A stretch of DNA of 64,000 nt from Candidatus Woesearchaeota archaeon (GCA_016188245.1 JACPIE010000028.1:5704-69703); one strand, 5' to 3'. Positions 29,981 through 41,585 are shown, numbered from the stretch's first letter. Notes: generated by a model not told the origin, from the letters alone. Program-made: numbers and translations.

Positions 29981-30960
29981 GCTTTTTTCCTGCTTTTCTT
30001 CTTCGGCTTAATTGAGGATTCTTTAATCACTTCTTTTTGCGCTGATTTTTTCTTTCGGGCAAATGTATAGATCTTCCCGGCTATACCTATAGATAAAAAC
30101 ACAATTCCCAAAATTATTATTGCATGAGTATAGGTTCTCAGAAACAAAAGAAGAGCCACACTTATCAGCGCTTTTGGCTCAATGCCAAACCCTTCTCCAA
30201 ACATGTTCCCGAGGATTGATGTTGTGTCTATCCCGACAAAATTGTCATAAATGACTATCACCATGTACGGCAGCATTATAAAAATTCCGATATTCAAAGA
30301 AATGCCTGCCAATTCCAAAACAAACAATTTTACGTCCATCAACAACAAATACAGCAAAATCAGCAGTATAAGTATGGCGGCAAAATAGACAAGCTTATTG
30401 TTGCTTAAATAATTCATGAATTTAGCATAGCCTTCAAAAACCCCGCTATCCGGAATTTGGCCCGGCATTGCCCCTCCAACAACATCAAAGAAAAACTCCC
30501 TGTCATTTATTTTGCCGGACTTGTAATCCTTGCACAAGCTTCCTATCTTGCTCAAATCAGGTAGCAATGAACTTTTCTGCATTTTATTGCATTGGTTTTC
30601 AATCTCCCCTGATTCTATTTTGCTGCAGCTCTCTCTCACTCTGGCTTCATTTTCAATTTTGGCATTGCTTTTTTTTAGCTCCCGGTAACCTGCACAATCC
30701 TCTTTCATTGACTCAAGCAGGCTTCTGTTGGCGCAAATCTGGCTTATGGTTACCAAGTTTCCCTGCTCCAGCGATGAGCATGACTCTGCCAACTGGCCAA
30801 TTACTTGCTTTTGGGCATCGGGCGAGGCGTATGCAAAAATGTCCCCAAAAATTCCCTTAATCAGGTCCGGAAAATCAAAAGCTACTGAAGAAAAAATCAA
30901 TGTCGCGACAACTAAAACAATAAGAGATTTGACTATTGATATGGGGAATTTTTTTACCAT
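29977..30960 (-). CDS. Polytopic membrane protein with Cys-rich extracytoplasmic domain and Lys-rich tail
   Basis: N-terminal TM, about 150-aa soluble Cys-containing segment, 4-5 TM segments, KKKSRKKA tail. Start overlaps the upstream NTase gene by 7 nt. Confidence 0.35.
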   Translation of the reverse strand: MVKKFPISIVKSLIVLVVATLIFSSVAFDFPDLIKGIFGDIFAYASPDAQKQVIGQLAESCSSLEQGNLVTISQICANRSLLESMKEDCAGYRELKKSNAKIENEARVRESCSKIESGEIENQCNKMQKSSLLPDLSKIGSLCKDYKSGKINDREFFFDVVGGAMPGQIPDSGVFEGYAKFMNYLSNNKLVYFAAILILLILLYLLLMDVKLFVLELAGISLNIGIFIMLPYMVIVIYDNFVGIDTTSILGNMFGEGFGIEPKALISVALLLFLRTYTHAIIILGIVFLSIGIAGKIYTFARKKKSAQKEVIKESSIKPKKKSRKKA

Positions 30961-31472
30961 GAGCCCTCCTGCACAATTCCGTTTAATAAATTTGCCTTGA
31001 ATTCTTCGCTTATTTTGCCTAAACTTACTTCATGCACGCTTATTGCCTTTTTTAATATATTTTCATATTTTGACAAATCCAAATTTAATCTCTTGCTTGT
31101 TATGACAGCAATACCTATGTCTGATTTTTCGATGTCTTCTCCTCTTGAGAAGCTTCCAAACAAGATGATTGTTTTTGGCTGGTTGTATGATTCGGAAAGG
31201 CAGTCTATGATGCCTGATCGGTATATCAGCTCCAAATTATGCAGTCTTTTAAGCCTTGCAAAATCAATGTTTTCCCTGTTTGCAAAAACCTTTGTTATTA
31301 CCTTGCCCTTTTCCTTTATTATTAACCTCTCTTTTGCTAATCTGTCTGTTGCAGAAATGATGGTTGGCATGGATAATTTTAATATTCTGGAAAGCTCTCT
31401 AAGATGGAATTCCCTTGATGGATTATCAAAAAATACCGCTAAAACCTTCTGTATGGTAGATTTTTCTATCAT
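30954..31472 (-). CDS. Winged-helix + minimal nucleotidyltransferase (MNT-like) protein
   Basis: N-terminal FHLRELSRILKLSMPTIISATDRL is wHTH-like. ILFGSFSRGEDIEKSDIGIAV matches the GSxxRGxxxxxSDID NTase motif. Confidence 0.6.
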   Translation of the reverse strand: MIEKSTIQKVLAVFFDNPSREFHLRELSRILKLSMPTIISATDRLAKERLIIKEKGKVITKVFANRENIDFARLKRLHNLELIYRSGIIDCLSESYNQPKTIILFGSFSRGEDIEKSDIGIAVITSKRLNLDLSKYENILKKAISVHEVSLGKISEEFKANLLNGIVQEGSW

Positions 31473-31655
31473 TTGATAGATAAAAGTATCAATTGATATT
31501 TAAAACTATCGGTTTAATAAAGGACATAAAAATTTCTGAAAATTACCACCCTTCCTTGCCATATCTTTGAAAAATTTACTCTCTTATCAACTTTTATTTT
31601 TTCTTTCATTATAAATAAAAGTATTATTGAATGTATAAATGTTTTGGTTAGACAG

Positions 31656-31993
31656 AAAAGTTCGTGAAACGTACAATATTAAACGAGCTTTTTTCCCTCG
31701 TAAATTTTGTCCTCGTGAGGATTTTTTTGAGGCAGCCCACAAAAAATCCGAAACAGAGCTGACAAAATTTTCAGAGCTGGAAAAAAGTTAAGTTGAGTGA
31801 AGCGAAGCTACGAAGTGGCGAGCGGAACGAACCGTTTAATATGTGTTATATTCTTTTCCCATGCGTAGTGTGGGAAAACTGCGTCCGCAGACTTTTTCTG
31901 CGCCCAAGTGTGTTTGAGGCGACTTTTATGTAAGAAAAGGGCGTATAATCTACAGAGATTATGCGTAGGCTCAAATAGGATAATGAGGTTAGA
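31656..31993 (+). repeat. Left copy of a block-conserved inverted element (blocks A-D), expanded by hairpin insertions; possible structured ncRNA
   Basis: Blocks AAAAGTTCGTGAAAC (31656-31670), GTGTTATATTC (31843-31853), ACTTTTTCTGCGCCC (31891-31905) and GGATAATGAGGTTAGA (31978-31993) recur in the same order, reverse-complemented, at 38428-38525. The spacers fold into stems, including a 10-bp stem with one G-U pair at 31942-31965. TATAAAT lies at about 31634-31640. Confidence 0.5.
31676..31842. repeat. 167-nt hairpin-forming insertion bounded by 10-nt perfect inverted repeats (MITE-like or inserted RNA helix)
   Basis: ATATTAAACG (31676-31685) pairs with CGTTTAATAT (31833-31842). Inside is a three-tier nested stem: CTTTTTTCC/GGAAAAAAG, AAATTTTGTC/GACAAAATTT and GGATTTTTT/AAAAAATCC (31688-31787). 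Absent from the right copy, where blocks A and B are 2 nt apart. Confidence 0.5.
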
Positions 31994-32068
31994 TACTAGA
32001 GTACTTACGTTAGGCGAACTTTCCCAAATTAAGAAAATTTATAAATCAAAAAATCTTCTTTTTTGTTA

Positions 32069-32749
32069 ATGACAAATACTAAATGGAAAGCTTTTGAGGA
32101 ACTTGTCAAAAAAATTTATGATATATTCCTATCAGAATACGATAAAAATGTTAAGCACGATATTAAAATTAAAGGAAAATCTGGGCTGGAACATCAAATT
32201 GATGTTTTTGTTGAAATTTTTATGCCAATTCTAACAATTAAAGACATAATAGACTGTAAACATTGGAATAGCAGAGTTAAAAAATCTGACGTAAAAGAAA
32301 TTTATACTACTAGGGATGAGGTCAATGCTAATAGGGCTACAATAATTTCTCGTAAGGGATTTCAAAGTGGTGCAATTCAGTTTGCTAAATTTAACGGGAT
32401 TAATTTATATAAAATTCTGAAACCAGAAGAATTGGGATTGCACACTGCTGTTTTTAAGGTAGAAGGCATAAAAGAAGAAGTCATTAAACTTAATGTTCAA
32501 TTAGAAGCTGAAAATCCCGAACAATTAAATCAATTATTTTCAAAATTTCATAAGAAGAAAAATTATAATGAGGTCACGATTTATAACCAAAAAGGAGAAG
32601 CGATAGCAAATGTTTTCGATTTGATGGATGATGCTTTTAGTCATTTGCGAAAAATTCCAGAACCAGGTTTAGAATCTACGACAAGGTTTTTAAATAGTTA
32701 CATGATAATAGATGGCAAGAAAAGAAAGGTTAACTTTATTGAAATATGA
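32069..32749 (+). CDS. Restriction endonuclease-like protein (Mrr_cat type PD-(D/E)xK N-terminal domain + unknown C-terminal domain)
   Basis: WKAFEELVKKIY, GKSGLEHQIDVFVE, IIDCKHW and ATIISRKGFQSGAIQFAKFNGINLY follow the Mrr catalytic-domain pattern. Track start is TTG; ATG is at 32069. Confidence 0.6.
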   Translation: MTNTKWKAFEELVKKIYDIFLSEYDKNVKHDIKIKGKSGLEHQIDVFVEIFMPILTIKDIIDCKHWNSRVKKSDVKEIYTTRDEVNANRATIISRKGFQSGAIQFAKFNGINLYKILKPEELGLHTAVFKVEGIKEEVIKLNVQLEAENPEQLNQLFSKFHKKKNYNEVTIYNQKGEAIANVFDLMDDAFSHLRKIPEPGLESTTRFLNSYMIIDGKKRKVNFIEI

Positions 32750-32879
32750 ATTCAAAAGAGACCAATAAAAACAGAGAGATCTCAAGACATTAAAAATATA
32801 AAATTGCTCATAAACGATGTAGTTAATAACAAAATGTTTCTTGTTGAAAAACCAATTGGATTTGATTTGTTGGAAAAGG

Positions 32880-33647
32880 ATGGAATTTAAATGGGTAGTG
32901 AATAAAGAGGATATAGAAAGATTAAATAATTTCGTAGATAAATTTAAAGGAAATAATTTTGTGAAAGGTAGGGTTAAGAGGAACTTATCCGACAGTATAC
33001 CTCAATTTACTGAATCTGAATTTTGGAAATGGATGATTGGCTGCCTCTTGACAACACAACAGAGATCTGGTCCAAACAGCAGAATTTCTAAATTCTTAAT
33101 AATCACCCCTTTCCCCTTAAGCTATGATTCTTGTAAAAAGACTAAAAATCTTAAGAATTATTCATATGAGGTGCTTACCAAATCAAGAGGAATAAGAAGA
33201 ACAAACAAAATCAGTGAAGAAATTAAATTTAATTTTGATTGGTTGGTGAATGATGGTTGGGAAAAGATTATCAACATTTCAGAAAAGCTTATGGAAGCGA
33301 GGAAACAAAAGCCTTCAACAGAAAACATTAAGGTAGAACGAGAAGCATGCTTACTTGTTCAAGATTTGAAGGGGATAGGACCTAAGCAATCAAGGAATTT
33401 ATGGCAGGCTATGGGTTTAACAAGATATGAGATACCAATTGATAGCAGAATTATAAAATGGTTAAATAAAAATGAATTTCCATTTACTTTATCACCATCT
33501 GGATTATCGGATGAGAACTATTATCAGATGTTAATGGGGGGTATACAGGAATGGTGTGAAAGAGCGGATATTTTTCCTTGCATTTTTGATGCAGCAATAT
33601 TCTCAAGCTATGATGAAGAATGGCCAGAAGATTATGAACTTTGGTGA
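32880..33647 (+). CDS. HhH-GPD superfamily DNA glycosylase-like protein
   Basis: LKGIGPKQSRNLWQAMGLTRYEIPIDSRIIKWL is a helix-hairpin-helix plus a downstream Asp, as in EndoIII/OGG/AGOG enzymes. Track start is TTG; ATG is at 32880. Confidence 0.5.
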   Translation: MEFKWVVNKEDIERLNNFVDKFKGNNFVKGRVKRNLSDSIPQFTESEFWKWMIGCLLTTQQRSGPNSRISKFLIITPFPLSYDSCKKTKNLKNYSYEVLTKSRGIRRTNKISEEIKFNFDWLVNDGWEKIINISEKLMEARKQKPSTENIKVEREACLLVQDLKGIGPKQSRNLWQAMGLTRYEIPIDSRIIKWLNKNEFPFTLSPSGLSDENYYQMLMGGIQEWCERADIFPCIFDAAIFSSYDEEWPEDYELW

Positions 33648-33674
33648 ATATTAAAATTAATTTTTTCAGAAAAA

Positions 33675-34247
33675 ATGAAAAATAAAAAACTCACAATTGA
33701 AGAAAATATAAAAAAATTAAATTATTTTACTAGTATAGCTAAGGAAGCCGAGAAATCTGAGGATTTTCCAACAAAATTGGGTGCCTTGACTATTTATGCC
33801 GGAATGGTGGATTTCTCTGCTATACAAGCAGCAAAAGTTCTCGAACAAGTAATACTAAAATCACAGATAAAATTAAACAAAAGACCCTCATTTAAACCAA
33901 AATCTGATGAATATTTTTATAATTTTCAAGTCCCTAGCAGAAGAATAGGTAGAGTAATAAGCTCTCATTTACCTTTCAGACCCTTAGCTGGAACTAATGA
34001 AGAAAAAGCTCAGGAAATTACTTCTAAAGCTAAAAAATTTTTAGAATCACTGAATAACTTTCTTAATTATCGGAACACTCTGGTTCACCATTTAGGAAAT
34101 TCTAAGTTTAGTAAAGAATATTTATACGAACTACTAAATAAAGCAATATCAAAGTACAAAGAATATGTTATGGCTCATGAAGAATTTATGGACATAATAG
34201 CACCCTACACTCTTACTAAAGAACAAAGAGAAGAACTTTACAAATAG
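33675..34247 (+). CDS. Hypothetical all-helical protein with HEPN-like RNxxxH motif
   Basis: 190 aa; LNYRNTLVHHLGN fits the R-N-x3-H motif of HEPN RNases. No other recognisable feature. Confidence 0.35.
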   Translation: MKNKKLTIEENIKKLNYFTSIAKEAEKSEDFPTKLGALTIYAGMVDFSAIQAAKVLEQVILKSQIKLNKRPSFKPKSDEYFYNFQVPSRRIGRVISSHLPFRPLAGTNEEKAQEITSKAKKFLESLNNFLNYRNTLVHHLGNSKFSKEYLYELLNKAISKYKEYVMAHEEFMDIIAPYTLTKEQREELYK

Positions 34248-34332
34248 AAAATTAGAAAAGATGATATTACTATTATCAATTCAGCTATTATGTTCTCAAA
34301 AATGCCATCTAAAGTTATCATTTTTAGTTAAA

Positions 34333-34995
34333 TCAACCTATATAATCTGGCTTTTCTTTCTTGTTTTTTCTCTCTTGATATTTTCTAATGAAATATCTTA
34401 TTAACCAACGTGAGCCTGCGTATATTGTACATATTAAAGTCAATAGCGTTGTCCATGTCACAAAAAAGGTCAATTTATTTGTGAAATCTTTAGAGCTTTC
34501 AATAATGTAATCCAAGAGTGAAGGATCAGGAATTCGGATAAAATTATAGTAAGTTCCATTAAATCCAACATAAAGCCATGTAGGAATTGTCCGGATTTGT
34601 ATTGTGGTAGTCCCATTAACTAATTTTAGATTTTTTTCATGTAGTTCTTTTCCATTGCCAAAATCATAATACAAATCAGCAGAACAATCTTGGCATGGAA
34701 CACAAACAGGTTCAAAACTACTACATAAGTTTAACGTGATATGTAGCAAATCTCTTTCGCCAAAATTTTCATTATATGCTGCATCAATGTTATATGCTGG
34801 TACTATAGACATCATGCCGGGAATTGGAATCGCTACTCTATCTCCACTCCACCATAAAAATTGCTGATAAAAGAGAAGAGAAACCATCACGAATGAAAGA
34901 AATGCCGTCAGTAAAATTCTTTTTTCTGTAGGAATACCTCTAACAAACTCGTGCATTTTCTCAGCATTGGTTTTATATTTCTTCTTTTTCTTCAT
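34333..34995 (-). CDS. Hypothetical bitopic membrane protein with Cys-rich extracytoplasmic domain
   Basis: 220 aa; TM near the N-terminus and TM near the C-terminus; CSSFEPVCVPCQDCS cluster. Last gene of a 3-gene minus-strand cassette. Confidence 0.35.
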   Translation of the reverse strand: MKKKKKYKTNAEKMHEFVRGIPTEKRILLTAFLSFVMVSLLFYQQFLWWSGDRVAIPIPGMMSIVPAYNIDAAYNENFGERDLLHITLNLCSSFEPVCVPCQDCSADLYYDFGNGKELHEKNLKLVNGTTTIQIRTIPTWLYVGFNGTYYNFIRIPDPSLLDYIIESSKDFTNKLTFFVTWTTLLTLICTIYAGSRWLIRYFIRKYQERKNKKEKPDYIG

Positions 34996-35296
34996 TTATG
35001 TATTCTAGAGCTCTTTTTTTATTCCATTTATGTACTCCTTTTTCTTTAAATTCCACTAATAATGTTGTATTACTAAAATATCGTCCACAAGTATATGCTA
35101 ATAAAACTAAAACAATTATAAAAAAAGGGTATATGACCCAAGTTTCTCCACTTAAGATGGCTCTTAAAAAATCAAAAAAAGTTATGATAAGTACAACTAA
35201 AAAACTAACCATAAAAGCTTGATAAACACTCAACTGTCTCTTTAATTCTGATAATTTTGATTTTTTTACAATATTTAGCATTTTTTCTGCATTCAT
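34973..35296 (-). CDS. Hypothetical small membrane protein (2 TM)
   Basis: 107 aa; overlaps the downstream gene by 23 nt and lies 9 nt after the upstream gene. Confidence 0.3.
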   Translation of the reverse strand: MNAEKMLNIVKKSKLSELKRQLSVYQAFMVSFLVVLIITFFDFLRAILSGETWVIYPFFIIVLVLLAYTCGRYFSNTTLLVEFKEKGVHKWNKKRALEYINEEKEEI

Positions 35297-35305
35297 TTGT
35301 CAAAA

Positions 35306-35986
35306 TCATTTAGTTTCTCTTTTTATAAAATTAACAAATTTATAACCGAATTCATTTTGCCTAAACTCGAGATTTGGTTTATGGAAAAAATGATCATATG
35401 GCATAGAACCAGTATTTGCTTCTCTTTTCAATTGTTCAAATGATTCCCCAACCTTTTCGAAAGCCCGACCAATCGAATCAATATCCCTTTGTACTAAGCC
35501 GTGTCCAGACAGCACATTTATCAAGGATTTTTCTCGTGGATTTAAAAAAGATTCATTAATTATAGTATGATCTTCCTCGTAGATACTTAATAGATAGACA
35601 AGTTCTTCCTCAGATAGTCTATCTAAAATATTAAGAAACGAGAGTTTTTCGTCAAAAGAAATTTTCTTTTTATAAGAATTTATTGCCAAATTTAAATATC
35701 TCTTTCGTTTTTCTTCTCTATTCTCAAAAGCTACCTTTTGAACAAGTTCTCGGATAAATTGTATATTTTCCGCAGATTTCCTAGCATCATCAATCATAAA
35801 CAAAACATCGACTTCATTGATAAATTCTTCCCACCACTCTTTATTTCTTTTACTAAGATATTCAAAGCCCTGAACTAGCAAGGCAAAAGATCCTGTTGTT
35901 GCCCCAACAATCCCCCCAAATAGAATGTCTATTATTGGTGCTACAGTCTTAAAGACTTCAATTCCAAACTCTTTTTTCTCATTCAT
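35306..35986 (-). CDS. Hypothetical protein (N-terminal Gly-rich hydrophobic segment, helical body)
   Basis: 226 aa with ATG start; first gene of the minus-strand cassette. No family recognised. Confidence 0.4.
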   Translation of the reverse strand: MNEKKEFGIEVFKTVAPIIDILFGGIVGATTGSFALLVQGFEYLSKRNKEWWEEFINEVDVLFMIDDARKSAENIQFIRELVQKVAFENREEKRKRYLNLAINSYKKKISFDEKLSFLNILDRLSEEELVYLLSIYEEDHTIINESFLNPREKSLINVLSGHGLVQRDIDSIGRAFEKVGESFEQLKREANTGSMPYDHFFHKPNLEFRQNEFGYKFVNFIKRETK

Positions 35987-36158
35987 TTTTATTTAGTTGG
36001 TTTCTAATCCTTTAAAAAGGCTTCCATACATTACACTGAAAATGTTTGACATAACGTTAACAGAGTATGCAAATATGAGAAACTTACCTATCCAAAAATC
36101 AGTAACCTTTAAATTCCCTTATTCATTCTATTTTCTATAGTAAAAGGGATTGATAATC

Positions 36159-36320
36159 ATGCTTGATTGGGATAAAAAGCAATGGAAATTATTCTGGCTA
36201 GGTAGTACTGGATTTTTCATTATAACTGGTGTTTTTGGGATAATGAGTCAAGTTTGGTATACGATTGCAATCTCGGTAATTATGACATCTATCTCAATTA
36301 TACAATATAAAAAAATTTAA
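36159..36320 (+). CDS. Small membrane protein (53 aa, 2 TM), below the ORF-track cutoff
   Basis: ATG 36159, TAA 36318-36320; translates to MLDWDKKQWKLFWLGSTGFFIITGVFGIMSQVWYTIAISVIMTSISIIQYKKI. Ends 2 nt before the next ATG. Confidence 0.25.
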   Translation: MLDWDKKQWKLFWLGSTGFFIITGVFGIMSQVWYTIAISVIMTSISIIQYKKI

Positions 36321-36322
36321 TC

Positions 36323-37429
36323 ATGAGTAAAGAAGAGCTAGATAGGAAAATTTCTGAATTCAGGGATTTTTTAGAGAAAAATAATTTTCCTGTTGTGAAT
36401 TTAATATTTGAAAATTTTCTTAGTGGGAAAATAAAAAACAAATTCTTAGATTTAGTTAAATTATCAAAAAAAGTAGATACCTCAAAACAGGAAAACGAAA
36501 TAAAATTTGATTTAATAAAACTACTCGATAGAATCGTTAGATTAGATCCAACAAGAATTAAGAAATATTATCTTTGGGATATTGCTGTTGAAGAAAAAAC
36601 AGATTTTGTATTTGAGAAATTCCCAGAGGTAAAAGAATTATTGGACGAAGATGGGCTTATTCAAATACCTTACAACTCTGATTTAAATAAGAATGGATTC
36701 AGATACAAGGATAGTTATCTAATTTTTGAGAATGCTTACAGCAGAAATTTTCATCTAACACAATGGTTAATAGAAAATTGGAAAAATAATTTTGTACTAA
36801 AACTTCCGATTAACAAAAACTGTTTAGGAGTTTCTGAAACAAGGAGACAAGTAGAATTACTTTCTCATTGGCAAGGTCCTAAAACAATTAATCAAATTAA
36901 AGAATCTTTAGCGGGAAAGGAATTTGTCGTGAAAGGCCCAAGTTTTTTTGATGCACCTTTGATGGATAAAACAGAGTTCTTATTTAATTCACGAGATAAT
37001 AAGTGGCATTTGCAAATTGAGGAGTTGTTACCTCTAGACGGCATTGAACTTGGAACAATAATTAATTATCAAGACAAAGAACATAAATTTTATACTAGGT
37101 ATCTACATGCAATTACTAACAAAAATCTGTCAGAATGTTTTCATATGGATGGTGGAATAAGAGTTTACAAAACTTATGAAAATTTTGAAAGGAGGAATAA
37201 ATCTGAATTAAAAGATTCTAGCATAACAAGTTACTCAGATAGATATAAATTTTTTAGAGTAGATTCAGAAAGTGGAATTTCATCCTTTCAAGAGATTATT
37301 GGTTTGTTTTTCATAGCAAACCCTTATGTTTTAGAGTTTTTTGATGGAGAAAGTAATTTCACCAAAGATTTAGAAAAAAACAGAACAGGCATTTTAGAAA
37401 TAGATTTTAAGTATAAAAAATTCAATTAA
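36323..37429 (+). CDS. Hypothetical soluble protein, 368 aa
   Basis: Long ATG-initiated ORF in an A+T-rich context where stop codons are frequent. No family recognised. Confidence 0.45.
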   Translation: MSKEELDRKISEFRDFLEKNNFPVVNLIFENFLSGKIKNKFLDLVKLSKKVDTSKQENEIKFDLIKLLDRIVRLDPTRIKKYYLWDIAVEEKTDFVFEKFPEVKELLDEDGLIQIPYNSDLNKNGFRYKDSYLIFENAYSRNFHLTQWLIENWKNNFVLKLPINKNCLGVSETRRQVELLSHWQGPKTINQIKESLAGKEFVVKGPSFFDAPLMDKTEFLFNSRDNKWHLQIEELLPLDGIELGTIINYQDKEHKFYTRYLHAITNKNLSECFHMDGGIRVYKTYENFERRNKSELKDSSITSYSDRYKFFRVDSESGISSFQEIIGLFFIANPYVLEFFDGESNFTKDLEKNRTGILEIDFKYKKFN

Positions 37430-37483
37430 TTAACAAGTTAAATAAAGTAATCCTTAAATACATATTGATATTTGTAAAAATTT

Positions 37484-38407
37484 ATGAATAATATAATAAT
37501 AAATGCTTCGAATGGAATCAACGCTTCTATATCTATTTTAAACAACAATCCACCTATAAATTATTCTATAATAGAAAGTATAGCAAATAATGCTGTTTCA
37601 ACTTTAACAAGTGCTAATACGGCTTTTATTGATCCTTACTGGTTTTATAGTGCCGCTGCACAATCTGCCGCAGCAATTGTTGGTCTTATGGGTGCTTTCT
37701 TAACCACTAAAATCATAAGTATACATAGTCAGAAAAAACAATTAAAACAGAATATTTCGACTTACAAAAATCAGATAGAGTTTATAGAAAAAGAAATAAA
37801 ACCATTTCAAGAATGGATAAAAAAAATTGATGAGGATGAAGAAAGAAAAAATGTTATAAAATTCTTGGATGAAATAAAAGAAACAATAAATCTAGATAAT
37901 CCCCCAGAGTTTGAATCAATTCTGAAAGAAGCAAGAGAATCTGAAGATTTTAAAGACATCAGTGAAGAAATTCTAAAAGAAGAGTACAATGAAGAATTTT
38001 TTAATTCAGTAAGAAACTATCGCCGTACGCCACCTTTTGCTAGGGGACTCTCTAACTTATTCACTTCAAATTTAGACGCAACTAGAGATAAATGGAATAG
38101 GTATCGAGAATATTCTGATTATATAGATAAAAAATTAGTAGAAGTTGAATCACTCAAAAAATTAATTTCCATAAAAGAAGATGAAATAAAAAGTCTAGTA
38201 ACACTAAAGGAGTTAAGAGATAACATTTTTTCACTAATAATATTTTCTATATTGGGTGTTGTTGTCCCATTAACTTTATTAATGTTGAATTATGAGACAA
38301 TGCTTAAATGGCGATTAATCGTTCTTGCTCTTTTTATTTTTGGATTAAGTCTTGTTGTTGTTACTATTAGCAATGAAATAAGAAAAATATTTTCAAGCAA
38401 ATATTGA
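37484..38407 (+). CDS. Hypothetical membrane protein: TM - long coiled coil - two C-terminal TM segments
   Basis: 307 aa; hydrophobic AAAQSAAAIVGLMGAFLTTKII, an E/K-rich heptad-like middle, and a C-terminal LIIFSILGVVVPLTLLML / LIVLALFIFGLSLVVV. Confidence 0.4.
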   Translation: MNNIIINASNGINASISILNNNPPINYSIIESIANNAVSTLTSANTAFIDPYWFYSAAAQSAAAIVGLMGAFLTTKIISIHSQKKQLKQNISTYKNQIEFIEKEIKPFQEWIKKIDEDEERKNVIKFLDEIKETINLDNPPEFESILKEARESEDFKDISEEILKEEYNEEFFNSVRNYRRTPPFARGLSNLFTSNLDATRDKWNRYREYSDYIDKKLVEVESLKKLISIKEDEIKSLVTLKELRDNIFSLIIFSILGVVVPLTLLMLNYETMLKWRLIVLALFIFGLSLVVVTISNEIRKIFSSKY

Positions 38408-38427
38408 TACATAAAACAAATAAATAG

Positions 38428-38525
38428 TCTAACCTCATTATCCGTTAGTCTTTCTTTCTCTTAAGAGAAACAGTAATCGAAGGGGCGCAGAAAAAGTGAA
38501 TATAACACTAGTTTCACGAACTTTT
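38428..38525 (-). repeat. Right (compact) copy of the block-conserved inverted element
   Basis: Reverse complements of blocks D (38428-38443), C (38483-38497), B (38498-38508) and A (38511-38525). The C-D spacer contains a 16-nt perfect palindrome TTTCTCTTAAGAGAAA (38455-38470). Confidence 0.5.
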
Positions 38526-38557
38526 ACTTTATTTTCATACGTAAATTTTCCATTTTT

Positions 38558-40768
38558 CTAACTCTCCTTATACTCCCCTTCGACAACGTCCTTTATCTGC
38601 TTTGCCTTTAAAGGGCCTATCTTGCCGACTTCCTGCAGCTCCTTTTCAGAGGCATTCACAATGTTTTTTATTGTCTTGAAATGCTTCAGCAAGGGCTTTG
38701 CCAAAGTAAGGTTTATGCCGGGCAGCGAGCTTACAAAATACTCCTGCTGCTCTTTTAATGTGGCTGGCTTTCTGTCGGCATGCAGGCTGAAGTCCTTGCC
38801 CGTTTCGTCCTGCTCCCTTCTTGCTATTATCTGCAGCAAGGCAGCAGTTTCCTTAGAGCTTCTTGTCTGCACAATCGGGATGCCGTAGCTTACGGCAATC
38901 GTGGCAAGCATACCCAGGATTGAATTTTGATGCACGTTCCTCACGCTGTAGATGTCTTGGTTTCCTTCTATGACCACCATGGGCCTTTCAAAATTATTCT
39001 TGAGATTTTTTATCTGCTCAAGCAGCCTTCCGTCAATTATGCTGTCAACAAAATCGTGCACTGCTTTGACTTCAATGCCGCACCTTGAAGAAACAATATA
39101 ATCCGCATAATCCAGCTTTTCCAGGCTTATGGAAACATCATTTTCAGCAAGCTCTTTTAAAATGCCGCTTCCCTTTTCCCTATAGTCGGCAAATATCCTT
39201 AACCTGCCGGCGAACCTGTTCACCGGAACCTCTTTTTTAACATTCAATGAAAGATTCAGCTTTTTCCTCAAATTTTCCAGGTGCCTGTGCATCTTCTTTT
39301 CATTATGGTGCGCAACCCACCTGTAGGCTTCATCTCTTGTGCCTTCTGCCATAAGAATAATGACTCTGCCCTTATCCTGCCTTCCTGTCCTGCCTCTCCT
39401 CTGTATGCTCCTTATCGCGCTTGGAATAGGCTCGTAAAAAATAACCAAGTCCACTTTTGGAATATCCAGCCCTTCCTCCCCGATTGAAGTTGCCACAATG
39501 ACATTAAACAAGCCCTGCCTGAAATCGTCAAGCATCTGCTTCTGCTCTTTCTGGCTCAATCCAGTGTCATTTTTTTTCTGCTGCCCGACAAAAATATTGG
39601 CCTTGACGTTTGGAATCATGTTAAGCTTTCTCATAACATCAAGGGCGTTATCCCTGTATTGGTTGAAAATCATTATTTTTACATTTTCATTTTGCCTGAC
39701 TTCATTTTCGACAATATTCTGCAGCTCTATCAGCTTCGGGTGCTCTACTTTTTCCTCGTGCAAAATCCTTGCCTTGACCATCGCAGACTTGAAGTTTGAA
39801 TCGCCCATTACGGATTTTATCGCCTTGGTTTTGCCTGTCCTTGATTCGGCGATAAGCTTTTCAAAGTACTTGTGCAGCGCGGCAATTCCCTGGCTTTCAA
39901 GCAACTCCAGGGCATGATGCACCTTCATCATTTCAGCAAGCAAGGAAATTGAGTTCCATACAACAAAATCCTTTTCGCCGGAAGATATCTTTCCTCTCAG
40001 CTCAGCCTGCAGCTGCAGCAAGTCAGACTTTGAGGCAAACTTGGAATTCTGCCTCTGCAGGATGCCCCATTGCCTGAGCTTTTCAAACCTCTCTTTCAAA
40101 AACAGCAGCAAAAATTTTTGTATGTCTATGAATACCTTTGGAAGCTTAACTTTGACCCAGTCTATCTGCATCTCCTGTATGTACGGCTTTACATCAGGAT
40201 CTTCGTCAGTCCTTACTTCAATTCCCTCAATGAAAAGATTCCTGCAGACATCCTCTATCTTGGCCATATCGCTTCCGGGAGAGGCTGTCAAGGCAATTAT
40301 CCTCGGAAATCTTGAAAGCTTCATGAACTGCTTCGCGACAAAAACATAAGAATAATCCCCAACAGCGCGATGGGCCTCGTCAATCCCAAGCAGGCAAACT
40401 TCTTCAAGATTTATCCTGCTGCTTATTATGTCATTTTCCAGGCCTTGGGGAGTTGAGAAAATTATTTTTGATTTGCCCCAGAGCTCCTGCCTTTTTTCCG
40501 GGCTTACCATTCCTGTAAAAACTGCCATATCACTGCCATCGATGACAAAATGCTCCCTGAAAACATTTATGTACTGCTCAATCAAGGGTTTTGTGGGGCC
40601 TATGAAAAGCACCTTTGAATTCGGATACTGCTTGAGCCTTTGCGCAGCAAGCATAAGGAAAATGTTGGTCTTGCCCATGCCTGTAGGCAGCACAACCAAA
40701 GTGTTCTTTTCAGCGGCTGTTGCAAGAATTGTCTGCTGGTACAGCCTTGGCTCAAAGTTCTTAATCAT
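38558..40768 (-). CDS. hef: Hef: helicase-associated endonuclease for fork-structured DNA (SF2 helicase + ERCC4 nuclease + HhH2)
   Basis: LPTGMGKT, GIDEAHRAVG, TSIGEEGLDIP, QRRGRTGR, then ERCC4 YADYIVSSRCGIEVK and the C-terminal LPGINLTLAKPLL HhH pair. Track start is TTG; ATG is at 40766-40768. Confidence 0.85.
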   Translation of the reverse strand: MIKNFEPRLYQQTILATAAEKNTLVVLPTGMGKTNIFLMLAAQRLKQYPNSKVLFIGPTKPLIEQYINVFREHFVIDGSDMAVFTGMVSPEKRQELWGKSKIIFSTPQGLENDIISSRINLEEVCLLGIDEAHRAVGDYSYVFVAKQFMKLSRFPRIIALTASPGSDMAKIEDVCRNLFIEGIEVRTDEDPDVKPYIQEMQIDWVKVKLPKVFIDIQKFLLLFLKERFEKLRQWGILQRQNSKFASKSDLLQLQAELRGKISSGEKDFVVWNSISLLAEMMKVHHALELLESQGIAALHKYFEKLIAESRTGKTKAIKSVMGDSNFKSAMVKARILHEEKVEHPKLIELQNIVENEVRQNENVKIMIFNQYRDNALDVMRKLNMIPNVKANIFVGQQKKNDTGLSQKEQKQMLDDFRQGLFNVIVATSIGEEGLDIPKVDLVIFYEPIPSAIRSIQRRGRTGRQDKGRVIILMAEGTRDEAYRWVAHHNEKKMHRHLENLRKKLNLSLNVKKEVPVNRFAGRLRIFADYREKGSGILKELAENDVSISLEKLDYADYIVSSRCGIEVKAVHDFVDSIIDGRLLEQIKNLKNNFERPMVVIEGNQDIYSVRNVHQNSILGMLATIAVSYGIPIVQTRSSKETAALLQIIARREQDETGKDFSLHADRKPATLKEQQEYFVSSLPGINLTLAKPLLKHFKTIKNIVNASEKELQEVGKIGPLKAKQIKDVVEGEYKES

Positions 40769-40808
40769 GGAAAAAGAGGGTGTTTCCGGATTTAAATATC
40801 TATTGCAG

Positions 40809-41585
40809 TCATCTCTGTATTTCAACAGTCAAAACCGCTTTTCTAACTCCTGAAGCAGGCCAATAGCTCGTTATTTTAGTCTCGTCCTTCATTGTAAACT
40901 CCCTTGTTATAGGCTGCTCGCCTTTCAGCTTGTAGTTGATGTCCTGAAAAGGCCCTTTTATATCTATGCCTGCAAAATAGATTGAGCTGTCCCTGAATTT
41001 GAAGCTTATTTTCACTTTATCGCCAATTTTTGCCTTTATAGTGCTTGGGTAAAAGCCATTGTCATCGGATTCTACTGTAAACTCTGCAATGCCCTGCGGC
41101 ATCTCCTGCTTTGGAGGCACATAATCAGATTCAACATCAATAGTGATTGCTTTAGTCACTTTTGGGCTTAACGAGGAATGGTTGCTTTGGACAAGCTCGG
41201 CCACTATGGTGTGTTTTCCTGAAACAATGTTATCAAAAGAGATTATGCTGTCAGCCGTGACTCTTTTATCGCTGTCGAGCCACACATGAAAGTGGCCTTC
41301 TCCCTTTCTTGGAGGCTTGCCTATCTCAACAATCCTGAAGTTTGAAGCGCTTACATTGACAGCTACTGTGCTGTTCTTTATAATGCTGCCATCTTTCGGA
41401 AATATTATCCTAATTTCCGGATTTTGGGCAGTTTCCTCAGTATCATTAATCTCTATCTTTGTAGTCCTCATGTATGCATTGTCTTTGATGACTCTTTCAA
41501 TGGAAGAATCTTCTATCCTGACGGACTCTTCGGAGCATGCAGCCAGCAAGGCAAATGCCATAAAAAAAGCAAAAAAATATCTCAT
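40809..41585 (-). CDS. Secreted lipoprotein, DUF4399-like + cupredoxin-like C-terminal domain
   Basis: Signal/lipobox FALLAAC; GEGHFHVWLD resembles DUF4399; C-terminal beta-rich segment. Confidence 0.45.
   Translation of the reverse strand: MRYFFAFFMAFALLAACSEESVRIEDSSIERVIKDNAYMRTTKIEINDTEETAQNPEIRIIFPKDGSIIKNSTVAVNVSASNFRIVEIGKPPRKGEGHFHVWLDSDKRVTADSIISFDNIVSGKHTIVAELVQSNHSSLSPKVTKAITIDVESDYVPPKQEMPQGIAEFTVESDDNGFYPSTIKAKIGDKVKISFKFRDSSIYFAGIDIKGPFQDINYKLKGEQPITREFTMKDETKITSYWPASGVRKAVLTVEIQR

What the first reader, a model, noticed from the sequence alone, without database searches (positions are those of the whole stretch)
31473..38557. A+T-rich 6.4-kb accessory island of unassignable genes bracketed by inverted copies of a block-conserved element
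This stretch lies between an ordinary NTase/membrane operon and hef. It looks visibly A+T-richer than its flanks (judged by eye, not computed) and its proteins are rich in N/K/I/F. It holds nine ORFs in three strand-switching cassettes (32069-34247 plus, 35986-34333 minus, 36159-38407 plus), and none has a housekeeping identity. Four sequence blocks occur in the same order at its two ends in inverted orientation: AAAAGTTCGTGAAAC, GTGTTATATTC, ACTTTTTCTGCGCCC and GGATAATGAGGTTAGA. The left copy is at 31656-31993 and the reverse-complemented right copy at 38428-38525. No integrase, transposase or flanking tRNA is present. The boundaries therefore do not fit the usual archaeal integrative-element pattern of direct att repeats. 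They suggest a non-autonomous or novel mobile cassette, an invertible segment, or two diverged ncRNA genes framing a defence island.
Basis: partly seen in the sequence, partly recalled or inferred. Interest (0 to 1): 0.8.

Follow-up and report, generated by a model that had tools for sequence, protein, structure and literature searches.

The report
Archaeal gene cassette with paired ends
A 6.4-kb A+T-rich block of defence-like genes in a groundwater DPANN archaeon is bracketed by a long and a short inward-facing copy of one conserved non-coding element, and the same pair brackets other gene sets in other genomes, which points to an undescribed kind of movable gene cassette.

Summary
The island has 29.4% GC against 40.7% for the rest of the window. 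The four blocks are exact, colinear and inverted; 0 of 20,000 shuffles reach the observed 57-nt chain.

The genome is a Woesearchaeota (DPANN) archaeon. In relatives hef is followed directly by the membrane-protein gene (an empty site) or by other toxin-antitoxin or defence genes. None of 49 related loci carries any of the nine island genes.

The blocks belong to a recurrent non-coding element with two forms:
- a long form (L; here 31656-32022), strongly structured, with an extra tail that is the reverse complement of block 1;
- a short form (S; 38428-38525).

L/S pairs facing inward bracket different cargo at unrelated loci in two other metagenomic contigs. S copies occur in three more. Homology stops exactly at the cargo junctions.

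No recombinase, tRNA, Rfam family or viral or plasmid match was found.

Best reading (confidence 0.45): a non-autonomous cassette for accessory or defence genes, moved or exchanged by a recombinase encoded elsewhere. Rival reading: the ends are small-RNA or promoter modules. An invertible segment has no support.

The mechanism is unresolved. The element family appears undescribed.

The parts
30954..31472 (-). Left flank: wHTH-nucleotidyltransferase (MNT-type) gene. It is itself accessory and lacks its HEPN partner here.
   Evidence: Pfam Polbeta/NTP_transf_2 and PADLOC PDC-M05A. Present in only L001, L003, L011 and L034 among relatives; L001 has the HEPN gene next to it.
31473..31655 (-). NTase promoter plus a decayed AbrB/VapB antitoxin gene and its promoter. 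This is the old content of the hotspot, not part of the element.
   Evidence: 78-98% DNA matches to L001, L003, L011, L023 and L034 upstream of the NTase and vapB genes. Remnant C-terminus ..KDMAR.GW read.
31656..32022 (+). Long (L) form of the boundary element, in order:
- block 1, 31656-31670
- a window-specific 172-nt hairpin insert, 31671-31842, with 10-bp inverted ends ATATTAAACG/CGTTTAATAT
- block 2, 31843-31853 (TATA-like)
- block 3, 31891-31905
- conserved hairpin, 31942-31965
- block 4, 31978-31993
- tail, 31994-32022, reverse complement of block 1
   Evidence: Sequence. nhmmer with the 3-copy L model gives E 7.5e-54. Fold z -3.97 on the + strand against -2.54 on the - strand. Homologous L copies in L281 and L291.
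32023..38427 (.). Cargo: nine genes at 29% GC.
- 32069-32749 (+): Mrr-type restriction endonuclease, with a polymorphic premature stop at 32747
- 32880-33647 (+): weak HhH/Ogg-like match
- 33675-34247 (+): unknown
- 34333-34995 (-): membrane protein
- 34973-35296 (-): 2-TM protein
- 35306-35986 (-): weak Abi_alpha match
- 36159-36320 (+): small membrane protein
- 36323-37429 (+): conserved 368-aa protein with no known fold
- 37484-38407 (+): coiled-coil membrane protein
   Evidence: ORFs. Pfam, PADLOC, NCBIfam and PHROGs scans. No tblastn hit in 49 related hef loci. Logan contigs are 100% identical. The 368-aa family was studied.
38428..38525 (-). Short (S) form of the boundary element, read on the - strand: block 1 (38525-38511), block 2 (38508-38498), block 3 (38497-38483), a variable 12 nt, hairpin TTTCTC-TTAA-GAGAAA, AGAAAGACTAAC, block 4 (38443-38428). 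Its block-4 end lies 20 nt from the stop codon of the last cargo gene.
   Evidence: Sequence. nhmmer with the S model gives E 1.2e-27, with five other S copies in L281 and L288-L291. Not significantly structured, z about 0.
38558..40825 (-). Right flank: hef helicase-nuclease, the conserved anchor of the hotspot.
   Evidence: 86-40% identical homologues in 49 loci of Woesearchaeota and other archaea. Synteny table.

Best explanation
The 6.4-kb island is the cargo of a non-autonomous gene cassette. Two forms of one conserved non-coding element delimit it: a long, highly structured form (L, 31656-32022, + strand) and a short form (S, 38428-38525, - strand). They face each other across the cargo.

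The cassette sits in a hypervariable hotspot between hef and a membrane-protein gene of a groundwater Woesearchaeota genome.

Shown:
- the hotspot is empty or differently filled in relatives;
- the L/S pair recurs around different cargo at unrelated loci;
- blocks 3 and 4 are almost invariant across nine copies;
- homology stops exactly at the cargo junctions, after block 4 in S and after the tail ..CGAACTTT in L;
- the two copies within one locus share the same block-2 variant, so they evolve in concert.

Inferred:
- a recombinase encoded elsewhere recognises the element (host Xer-type, an integrase of a co-resident element, or an unidentified transposase);
- it moves the whole unit, or swaps cargo between L/S frames, by recombination at or next to the conserved inner blocks, much as dif modules flanked by inverted pdif sites are thought to move;
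- the cargo (an Mrr nuclease here, an OLD nuclease in L289, membrane proteins, and a 368-aa protein that otherwise rides on integrase-bearing islands) is accessory and probably defence-related.
For: Hotspot.
- In relatives hef is followed within 44-110 nt by the membrane-protein gene (L004, L005, L008-L010, L015, L016, L018).
- In others hef is followed by unrelated cargo: L001 (Mrr-like nuclease, VapBC, NTase-HEPN), L011 (HNH), L007 (AIPR, RloB, ATPase).
- None of the nine island proteins hits any of the 49 loci.

Recurrence.
- L281: L, then 3.9 kb with 6 genes, then inverted S. Two of the genes are 76% and 80% identical to island genes. The right flank is not hef.
- L291: S, then one 392-aa membrane-protein gene, then inverted L, then a RelE toxin-antitoxin pair outside.
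- L289: a block-1-like terminus, an OLD nuclease gene, then S, with a 7-bp direct repeat CTTAAAG on both outer sides.
- S also occurs in L288 and L290.

Sequence constraint.
- Blocks 3 and 4 are invariant or nearly so in all copies while the spacers vary.
- Both copies in a locus carry the same block-2 variant: GTGTTATATTC twice in the window, TGTTAAATGC twice in L281 and twice in L291.

Junctions.
- Logan contig ends at 31993 and 38457 minus or plus k-1 (Logan's k taken as 31 from my own knowledge, not read from any tool output) fall at 32022, the last tail base, and at 38428, the first base of block 4.
- This is expected if other L/S copies with other cargo coexist in the same samples (this step is an inference).

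Cargo.
- The cargo is compositionally foreign.
- Homologues of the 368-aa protein lie next to tyrosine integrases or inside RM/OLD islands.

Chance is excluded: 0 of 20,000 shuffles reach the observed chain.
Against: - No recombinase was identified in cis or linked in any instance.
- There are no target-site duplications in the window or in L291. The only one, in L289, is a single 7-mer.
- The outer block 1 is less conserved than the inner blocks 3 and 4, and is missing in L288 and L290. Ordinary terminal-inverted-repeat transposons show the opposite.
- Only about eight instances were found in very large databases. Only two copies lie in this 64-kb window, so copy number per genome is unknown.
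- No excision circle, alternative junction or precise empty site with a single clean footprint was seen. L007 and L013 only carry diverged L-like remnants next to hef.
- The contig-end argument is indirect.
Confidence: 0.45

Rival explanations
1. L and S are two paralogous small-RNA or promoter modules that belong functionally to the cargo.

Block 1 and block 2 would act as upstream element and TATA box. Transcription would start near GCGCC at the end of block 3 and run through block 4.

L would give an RNA of about 130 nt ending at the tail. S would give an RNA of about 70 nt running antisense into the 3' end of the last cargo gene.

The pair would insulate or regulate the island by convergent or antisense transcription, for example to keep toxic defence genes in check. 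It would travel with the cargo for that reason, not because it is a recombination site.
For: - Block 2 (TTATATTC or TTAAATGC) matches the TATA-like hexamers found 28-34 nt upstream of most start codons in this window.
- No ORF starts at the predicted transcription start. The pseudo-ORF through S has stops in four of six copies, and a search of 5.8 billion proteins with it returned only two short ORFs (57 and 71 aa) that look like further copies of the element.
- L is strongly structured, with z -3.97 in the window and -4.76 in L291. The element strand folds about 10 kcal/mol (L291) to 28 kcal/mol (window) better than the complement.
- Three G.U-type substitutions keep pairing only on the block 1 to block 4 strand: position 3 of the L hairpin, S hairpin 1 in L289, and S hairpin 2 in L291.
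- The block-4 end of S always lies 4-20 nt from the stop codon of a convergent cargo gene.
- U-rich tracts follow block 4.
Against: - S itself is not structured, z about 0. Its consensus fold is weak, -6 kcal/mol with no compensatory pair.
- Covariation in the L hairpin is thin: one double change.
- The invariant part of block 3 (ACTTTTTCT) would lie upstream of the predicted start, so RNA function does not explain it.
- Block 1 pairs with the tail but would not be transcribed.
- The first cargo gene has its own TATA box downstream of the tail.
- No Rfam match.
- This reading alone does not explain different cargo between identical ends, or the empty sites.
Confidence: 0.25
2. Classical composite or MITE-type transposon. 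L would be a miniature inverted-repeat element whose own terminal repeats are block 1 and the tail. S would be a one-ended deletion derivative. The outermost block-1 copies would serve as terminal inverted repeats of a composite unit mobilised by a DDE transposase encoded elsewhere in the genome.
For: - Block 1 and the tail are inverted repeats: 15 of 17 positions pair in the window and 15 of 16 in L291.
- The outer block-1 copies of L and S are inverted relative to each other.
- L289 shows the pattern 7-bp direct repeat, inverted terminus, gene plus S, inverted terminus, 7-bp direct repeat.
- L288 has an IS481/IS630-like HTH (HTH_28, E 7.5e-10) gene fragment abutting S.
- Long and short size classes recall Correia-type elements (my own knowledge).
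Against: - No target-site duplication around L, or around the composite unit, in the window or L291.
- The termini (block 1) are the least conserved blocks and are absent in L288 and L290.
- No transposase with matching ends was found. The HTH protein has only three relatives, and the intact one (L295) has no S nearby.
- There is no sign of many dispersed copies: two in the 64-kb window, and none in 49 other Woesearchaeota loci apart from a remnant in L007.
Confidence: 0.15
3. Relic of integrase-mediated integration. The blocks would be att-like scars left by one or several canonical integrative elements that targeted this hotspot, with the integrase since lost.
For: - Homologues of the 368-aa cargo protein lie beside tyrosine integrases in L282, L285 and L294.
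- L282 shows a canonical direct att repeat overlapping the integrase 5' end.
Against: - The repeats here are inverted, not direct.
- They are block-wise conserved over about 100 nt rather than forming one contiguous core.
- No tRNA gene or gene-end target is present.
- Integrase-bearing islands with the same cargo protein lack L and S.
Confidence: 0.05
4. Invertible segment. A site-specific invertase or homologous recombination between the inverted copies would flip the 6.4-kb block.
For: Inverted orientation of the repeats. Contig breaks near block 4 in several Logan assemblies.
Against: - The contig ends (31977, 31993, 38457) are not where a de Bruijn graph with k = 31 (value from my own knowledge) would break for an inversion at block 4. 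Those positions would be 31978 and 38443, or 31964.
- Window, L281 and L291 all have the same arrangement, with L upstream of and co-oriented with the first cargo gene.
- No invertase is present.
- Identical stretches are at most 16 nt, which is too short for efficient homologous recombination.
Confidence: 0.03
5. Artefact or chance: an assembly chimera, or a fortuitous match in A+T-rich DNA.
For: The source is a MAG. The S side lies in low-complexity, A+T-rich sequence.
Against: - 0 of 20,000 shuffles reach the observed chain.
- Independent Logan assemblies of at least five runs reproduce the island and the S junction at 100% identity.
- The same element pair occurs in unrelated datasets.
Confidence: 0.02

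Closest known systems
dif modules flanked by inverted pdif (XerC/D) sites on Acinetobacter plasmids
   Same: Both are discrete modules of accessory, toxin-antitoxin or resistance genes bracketed by short conserved sites in inverted orientation. Both are found in many contexts with no recombinase in the module. Movement is presumed to depend on a host recombinase. Background: PMC6449649 and PMC11705084, which turned up in the search (titles and abstract openings seen there; the papers were not opened), plus my own knowledge.
   Different: - pdif sites are 28-bp 11-6-11 dyads that are identical in kind at both ends. Here the ends are about 100 nt and 200-370 nt, asymmetric, and share four ordered blocks.
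- Only the L hairpin can be read as an 11-6-11 dyad, and S lacks it.
- The host is an archaeon and the site is chromosomal.
- Xer involvement is untested.
MITE-flanked composite units (for example integron mobilisation units) and Correia-type elements with long and short forms
   Same: Non-coding elements with inverted termini (block 1 and tail), strong hairpin potential and two size classes. They possibly carry promoter signals. Two copies bracket a gene set.
   Different: - No consistent target-site duplication.
- The termini are less conserved than the inner blocks.
- There is no evidence of high copy number.
- No cognate transposase was found.
Integron gene cassettes (attI/attC), including the reported archaeal integrons
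   Same: Promoter-proximal platform, then variable cargo, then a structured recombination-site-like element immediately after the last ORF. GTTRRRY-like motifs occur at block 4 (GTTAGAC/T) and in the tail (GTTAGGC), as read from the sequence.
   Different: - No IntI gene.
- One cassette frame rather than arrays of direct attC sites.
- S does not fold as an attC-like bulged hairpin, z about 0.
- Cargo runs on both strands and has its own promoters.
Defence islands and hotspots next to conserved anchor genes
   Same: A conserved anchor (hef) next to a variable slot. Across relatives the slot holds restriction, toxin-antitoxin, Abi-like, AIPR and OLD genes.
   Different: In this case the cargo is delimited by a specific, recurrent pair of non-coding elements. 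Those elements are also found away from hef.

Membership tests
Archaeal integrative element (tyrosine integrase type) | Integrase gene within or at the edge of the element | tested here: not met
   No recombinase domain in the nine ORFs. No tblastn hit in the window to the integrases of L282 and L285.
Archaeal integrative element (tyrosine integrase type) | Direct att repeats, usually overlapping a tRNA gene or gene end | tested here: not met
   The repeats are inverted. There is no tRNA gene in 64 kb.
MITE or composite terminal-inverted-repeat transposon | Terminal inverted repeats | tested here: met
   Block 1 and the tail pair at 15 of 17 positions in the window and 15 of 16 in L291. The outer block-1 copies of L and S are inverted and identical over 15 nt.
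MITE or composite terminal-inverted-repeat transposon | Target-site duplication of fixed length | tested here: inconclusive
   None in the window or L291. A 7-bp CTTAAAG repeat lies on both sides in L289.
MITE or composite terminal-inverted-repeat transposon | Many dispersed copies, and a cognate transposase with the same ends | tested here: not met
   Two copies in the window. None in 49 other Woesearchaeota loci except a remnant in L007. Four hits in the metagenome scan. No transposase found. Whole genomes were not available.
Integron cassette / attC | IntI integrase with an adjacent attI and an array of attC sites in direct orientation | tested here: not met
   No integrase. There is a single inverted pair, not an array.
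Integron cassette / attC | attC folds as an imperfect hairpin with R''/R' cores | tested here: not met
   S folds no better than shuffled sequence on either strand. GTTRRRY-like motifs are present but are short enough to occur by chance.
Xer/dif-type module | 28-bp dyad (11-6-11) at both boundaries | tested here: inconclusive
   The L hairpin GGCGTATAATC-TACAGA-GATTATGCGTA fits the 11-6-11 geometry stated in PMC8371274. S has a different, shorter dyad. The dif site of this lineage is unknown.
Xer/dif-type module | Recombination by the host Xer recombinase | not testable with these tools
   Needs biochemistry or read-level junction data.
Invertible segment (inverton or shufflon) | Both orientations present in a population | not testable with these tools
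   No reads available. The indirect evidence is negative: contig ends do not fit an inversion, and three instances share one orientation.
Invertible segment (inverton or shufflon) | Invertase gene nearby | tested here: not met
   The 55 window ORFs outside the island region (those between 28.5 and 41.6 kb were not in this scan) were scanned against Pfam, but only the 25 families with most matching members (of 93) were displayed.
Known non-coding RNA family (Rfam 15) | Covariance-model match at or near the gathering score | tested here: not met
   The best hits score 9-29 bits against gathering scores of 40-149, with E values of 0.28 or higher.
Defence island | Known defence genes in the cargo, and a variable slot holding defence genes in relatives | tested here: met
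   Mrr_cat at 2e-9. Relatives carry Mrr-like, VapBC, MNT-HEPN, HNH and AIPR genes at this slot; an OLD nuclease is the cargo of the unrelated L/S locus L289. Most island genes remain unassigned.

The most novel reading that the evidence does not exclude
L is the gene or site for a structured nucleic acid of about 130-200 nt. S is its minimal partner site. Together they direct a host recombinase to exchange whole gene cassettes between L/S frames. That would be a structure-guided or RNA-guided cassette-exchange system specific to DPANN archaea. It would resemble integron attC recognition or IS110 bridge RNAs in principle, but would be unrelated to them in sequence.
Probability: 0.12. Interest if true: 0.9.

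Novelty: new variant of a known kind. Interest (0 to 1): 0.65.

Why it matters
DPANN archaea have tiny genomes and few recognised mobile elements or defence systems, and how they acquire and shuffle accessory genes is poorly understood.

This is a recurrent pair of conserved non-coding boundary elements that frames interchangeable, defence-like cargo with no recombinase of its own. It would be a new vehicle for gene flux in these lineages.

The element can be searched for with about 30 invariant bases. That gives a direct handle for cataloguing cargo, including a conserved 368-aa protein with a confident predicted fold and no known structural relative. It also gives a handle for finding the enzyme that acts on the element.

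If the long form turns out to be a functional RNA, it would be a new archaeal RNA class.

Tried and rejected
- Single-block scans of IMG/VR gave only chance-level hits, with no contig holding two blocks together. Two-block and L-specific patterns found nothing in viral contigs.
- blastn of the L core against the plasmid and phage collections found nothing.
- Rfam gave no match at permissive thresholds.
- Coding hypothesis for S: a reading frame through blocks 3 and 4 looks protein-like (..LFLRP..EKERLTDNEVR). It has stops in four of six copies, and block 3 shows no synonymous variation at all. A profile search of 5.8 billion proteins returned only two short ORFs (57 and 71 aa) that look like further copies of the element. 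Rejected.
- attC-like folding of S: rejected.
- Inversion read from contig ends: the positions do not fit.
- Covariation test of the L hairpin: pairing is kept in 96% of cells but with only one double change. It is consistent with structure and not decisive.
- Search for a cognate transposase through the HTH fragment next to S in L288: three relatives only, and no S near the intact copy.
- Structure search for the 368-aa cargo protein: a good model (pLDDT 89) with no PDB or BFVD match at E <= 0.001. A PDB sequence search with its family profile and single-sequence searches with two other cargo proteins gave nothing.
- Exact-protein look-ups for the NTase and Hef found no record.

Full report

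Sliding-window GC falls from 0.40-0.44 in both flanks to 0.27-0.33 between about 31.5 and 38.5 kb. The nine-gene block 32069-38407 has 0.294 GC against 0.407 for the rest of the window. No other 6.3-kb stretch goes below 0.379. Third-codon-position GC is 0.227 in the island against 0.486 in flank genes. N, F, Y, E and K are modestly enriched.

The nine ORFs and their three strand blocks are as described. The four blocks are exact at both ends, in the same order and inverted, and occur nowhere else in the window. The colinear chain of exact matches is 57 nt. In 20,000 dinucleotide-preserving shuffles of the right intergenic region the maximum was 32. The window has no tRNA gene. No recombinase domain is found in the island.

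**2. Where are we?** Hef homologues identify the genome as a Woesearchaeota (DPANN) archaeon from groundwater. The closest relative is 86% identical in Hef.

In 49 related loci the conserved order is o40809, hef, a variable slot, membrane protein, htpX, Toprim. In eight loci hef is followed by the membrane-protein gene after 44-110 nt, which is an empty site. In two loci it is followed directly by htpX. In the rest it is followed by 0.5-2.7 kb of unrelated genes. Examples:
- L001: an Mrr-like nuclease, VapB/VapC, NTase and HEPN.
- L011: an HNH gene.
- L007: an AIPR protein, an RloB-like protein and an ATPase.

None of the nine island proteins matches any of these loci.

The NTase flank is itself accessory. 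31473-31655 is its promoter plus a decayed AbrB-type antitoxin gene shared with L001, L011, L023 and L034.

**3. What are the blocks?** They are the conserved parts of a recurrent non-coding element with two forms.

Homologues of the 368-aa island protein led to contig L281, from a different study. There a related A+T-rich segment of 3.9 kb is again bracketed by the same blocks in inverted orientation. It has six genes, two of them 76% and 80% identical to island genes. Its right flank is not hef.

A two-block pattern scan of JGI metagenomes then found four more contigs.

- **Short form (S; window 38428-38525, minus strand).** About 100 nt: block 1 (AAAGTTCG..), block 2 (GTTATATTC or GTTAAATGC), block 3 (ACTTTTTCTGCGCC), about 12 variable nt, a small hairpin (TTCTC-loop-GAGAA), AGAAAGACTAAC, block 4 (GGATAATGAGGTTAGA).
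- **Long form (L; window 31656-32022).** It has the same four blocks plus:
  - a conserved hairpin (CGTATAATCT-ACAG-AGATTATGCG);
  - a 29-nt tail after block 4 whose end (TTACGTTAGGCGAACTTT) is the reverse complement of block 1, giving a long closing helix or internal inverted repeat;
  - in the window only, an extra 172-nt hairpin between blocks 1 and 2.

L folds far better than shuffled sequence: z -3.97 in the window and -4.76 in L291. It also folds well on the complementary strand, but 10 kcal/mol (L291) to 28 kcal/mol (window) less stably. S does not fold better than shuffled sequence.

**4. Architecture of the instances.**

| Locus | Arrangement |
|---|---|
| Window | L(+), 9 genes, S(-) |
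| L281 | L(+), 6 genes, S(-) |
| L291 | S(+), one 392-aa membrane-protein gene, L(-), then a RelE/antitoxin pair outside |
| L289 | only a block-1-like terminus on one side, then an OLD-family nuclease gene, then S; a 7-bp direct repeat CTTAAAG lies immediately outside both termini |
| L288 | S lacking blocks 1 and 2, abutting a truncated HTH_28 gene; the intact homologue (L295) has no S |
| L290 | S next to the contig end |

The L/S loci share these features:
- L and S point inward.
- The L tail lies 40-150 nt upstream of the first cargo gene and on the same strand.
- The block-4 end of S lies 4-20 nt from the stop codon of a convergent cargo gene.
- Similarity between copies stops exactly after block 4 in S and after ..CGAACTTT in L.
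- Within each locus both copies carry the same block-2 variant, which differs between loci. This indicates concerted evolution of the pair.

nhmmer models of L and S find no further copies in the 49 Woesearchaeota loci. The exception is an L-like remnant directly after hef in L007 (E 5e-4). A hairpin remnant in L013 was seen by eye.

**5. Population hints.** Logan assemblies of several runs of one project reproduce the island at 100% identity. Their contigs end at 31993 (twice), 31977 and 38457 (twice). For Logan's k of 31 (a value I take from my own knowledge, not from a tool output), 31993+29 = 32022, the last base of the tail, and 38457-29 = 38428, the first base of block 4. That pattern is expected if other L and S copies with different neighbours coexist in those samples. 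It is an inference, not a demonstration. The positions do not fit an inversion at block 4.

The Mrr gene carries a stop codon at 32747 in the window and in two runs. It reads CAA in another run.

**6. Coding or non-coding?** One frame through S reads like a peptide, but:
- it is interrupted by stops in four of six copies;
- block 3 shows no synonymous variation;
- a profile search of 5.8 billion proteins returned only two short ORFs (57 and 71 aa) that look like further copies of the element.

The constraint is therefore on the nucleotides.

Block 2 matches this genome's TATA-like hexamers, which lie 28-34 nt upstream of most start codons, so most mRNAs are leaderless. A transcript could then start near the GCGCC of block 3. 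Three wobble-type substitutions keep pairing only on the block 1 to block 4 strand. However, covariation in the L hairpin is weak, with one double change. There is no Rfam match.

**7. Cargo.**
- A clear Mrr-type restriction endonuclease domain (2e-9).
- Weak HhH/Ogg and Abi_alpha matches.
- Several membrane proteins.
- The 368-aa protein. Its family has 22 members. Its AlphaFold model is confident (pLDDT 89, pTM 0.86) but has no PDB or viral structural neighbour. Elsewhere its homologues sit beside tyrosine integrases (L282, L285, L294) or in an RM/OLD island (L292). Those islands lack L and S.

The cargo is accessory and associated with mobile elements. A defence role is plausible but unproven.

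**8. Mechanism.** I commit, at 0.45, to a non-autonomous cassette whose L and S ends are cis-acting sites for a recombinase encoded elsewhere. The whole unit would move between loci, or cargo would be exchanged between L/S frames, by recombination at or next to the conserved inner blocks.

- Shown: the hotspot and empty sites, recurrence of the pair around different cargo at different loci, sharp junctions, concerted ends, foreign composition.
- Inferred: the recombinase, the point of strand exchange, mobility itself.

The main rival (0.25) is that L and S are promoter or small-RNA modules that regulate the cargo by convergent transcription. The two readings are not exclusive. A classical MITE or composite transposon (0.15) has two things in its favour: the block 1/tail repeats, and the single 7-bp duplication in L289. 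Three things count against it: the lack of duplications elsewhere, the poorer conservation of the termini, and the absence of a transposase. Integration scars, an invertible segment and an artefact are unlikely.

**9. Comparison and novelty.** The closest analogues are dif modules bounded by inverted pdif sites, MITE-flanked composite units or Correia-type elements, and integron cassettes. For each, at least one defining feature tested here is not met or could not be settled (see the membership table). The element has no match in Rfam, plasmids, phages or IMG/VR. Literature searches did not turn up a description.

I rate it a new variant of a known kind: a non-autonomous gene cassette with inverted ends. 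It has an unusual asymmetric, structured end pair, and it occurs in a lineage where such systems are not described.

Noticed in passing
window 32747: The stop codon (TAA) that truncates the Mrr-type nuclease to 226 aa reads CAA in Logan contig L267 (SRR12113422), giving a 273-aa ORF. The window and two other runs carry the stop. This is a population polymorphism, or pseudogenisation in progress.
   Followed up: partly
window 30954-31655: The NTase (MNT-type) gene has lost its HEPN partner, which is present in L001. Upstream lies a decayed AbrB/VapB antitoxin gene whose PIN partner is gone. These are layers of eroded toxin-antitoxin modules in the same hotspot.
   Followed up: partly
window 36323-37429: A 368-aa protein family with only 22 detectable members, including one from a Halosimplex genome. 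The AlphaFold model is confident (pLDDT 89) but has no structural neighbour in PDB or BFVD. The gene recurs beside tyrosine integrases and in RM/OLD islands.
   Followed up: yes
L282 7107-8201 and 13343-13417: Codons 20-44 of a Phage_integr_3 integrase are repeated about 6 kb downstream at 84% identity (25 aa). This marks the direct att repeat of a canonical integrative element carrying a homologue of the 368-aa protein.
   Followed up: no
L289 2418-2424 and 4178-4184: A 7-bp direct repeat CTTAAAG lies immediately outside inverted AAAAGTTCG-type termini that enclose an OLD-family nuclease gene plus an S element. It is the only target-site-duplication-like signature seen.
   Followed up: partly
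L288 4560-4892; L295: A small HTH_28 (IS481/IS630-like) gene is frameshifted and cut off about 19 nt before the block-4 end of an S copy that lacks blocks 1 and 2. The intact 121-aa homologue in L295 has no S element.
   Followed up: partly
L007 12212-12420; L013 7600-7660: L-like remnants lie directly after the hef stop codon in two related genomes, without cargo or S. They include the hairpin CGCATAATCTCTGTAGATTATACG and TTTACGGGGG-type segments that are also present in the window's 172-nt insert. The element may therefore be old at this locus.
   Followed up: partly
window, whole 64 kb: No tRNA gene was detected in 64 kb. TATA-like hexamers sit 28-34 nt upstream of most start codons, which implies largely leaderless mRNAs.
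   Followed up: no
window 1-28500 and 41600-64000: A Pfam scan of the remaining ORFs lists Sigma54_activat, GPD_NAD_C_bact, biotin carboxylase and carboxyltransferase, thiolases and a CoA-transferase. That is an unusual metabolic and regulatory set for a DPANN genome. It could reflect horizontal acquisition or a binning or assembly chimera.
   Followed up: no
window 31475-31510: A 36-nt near-palindrome (GATAGATAAAAGTATCAATTGATATTTAAAACTATC) lies just upstream of the NTase start and is conserved in L001, L003, L011 and L034. Five of six Logan contigs end at 31482, inside it.
   Followed up: no
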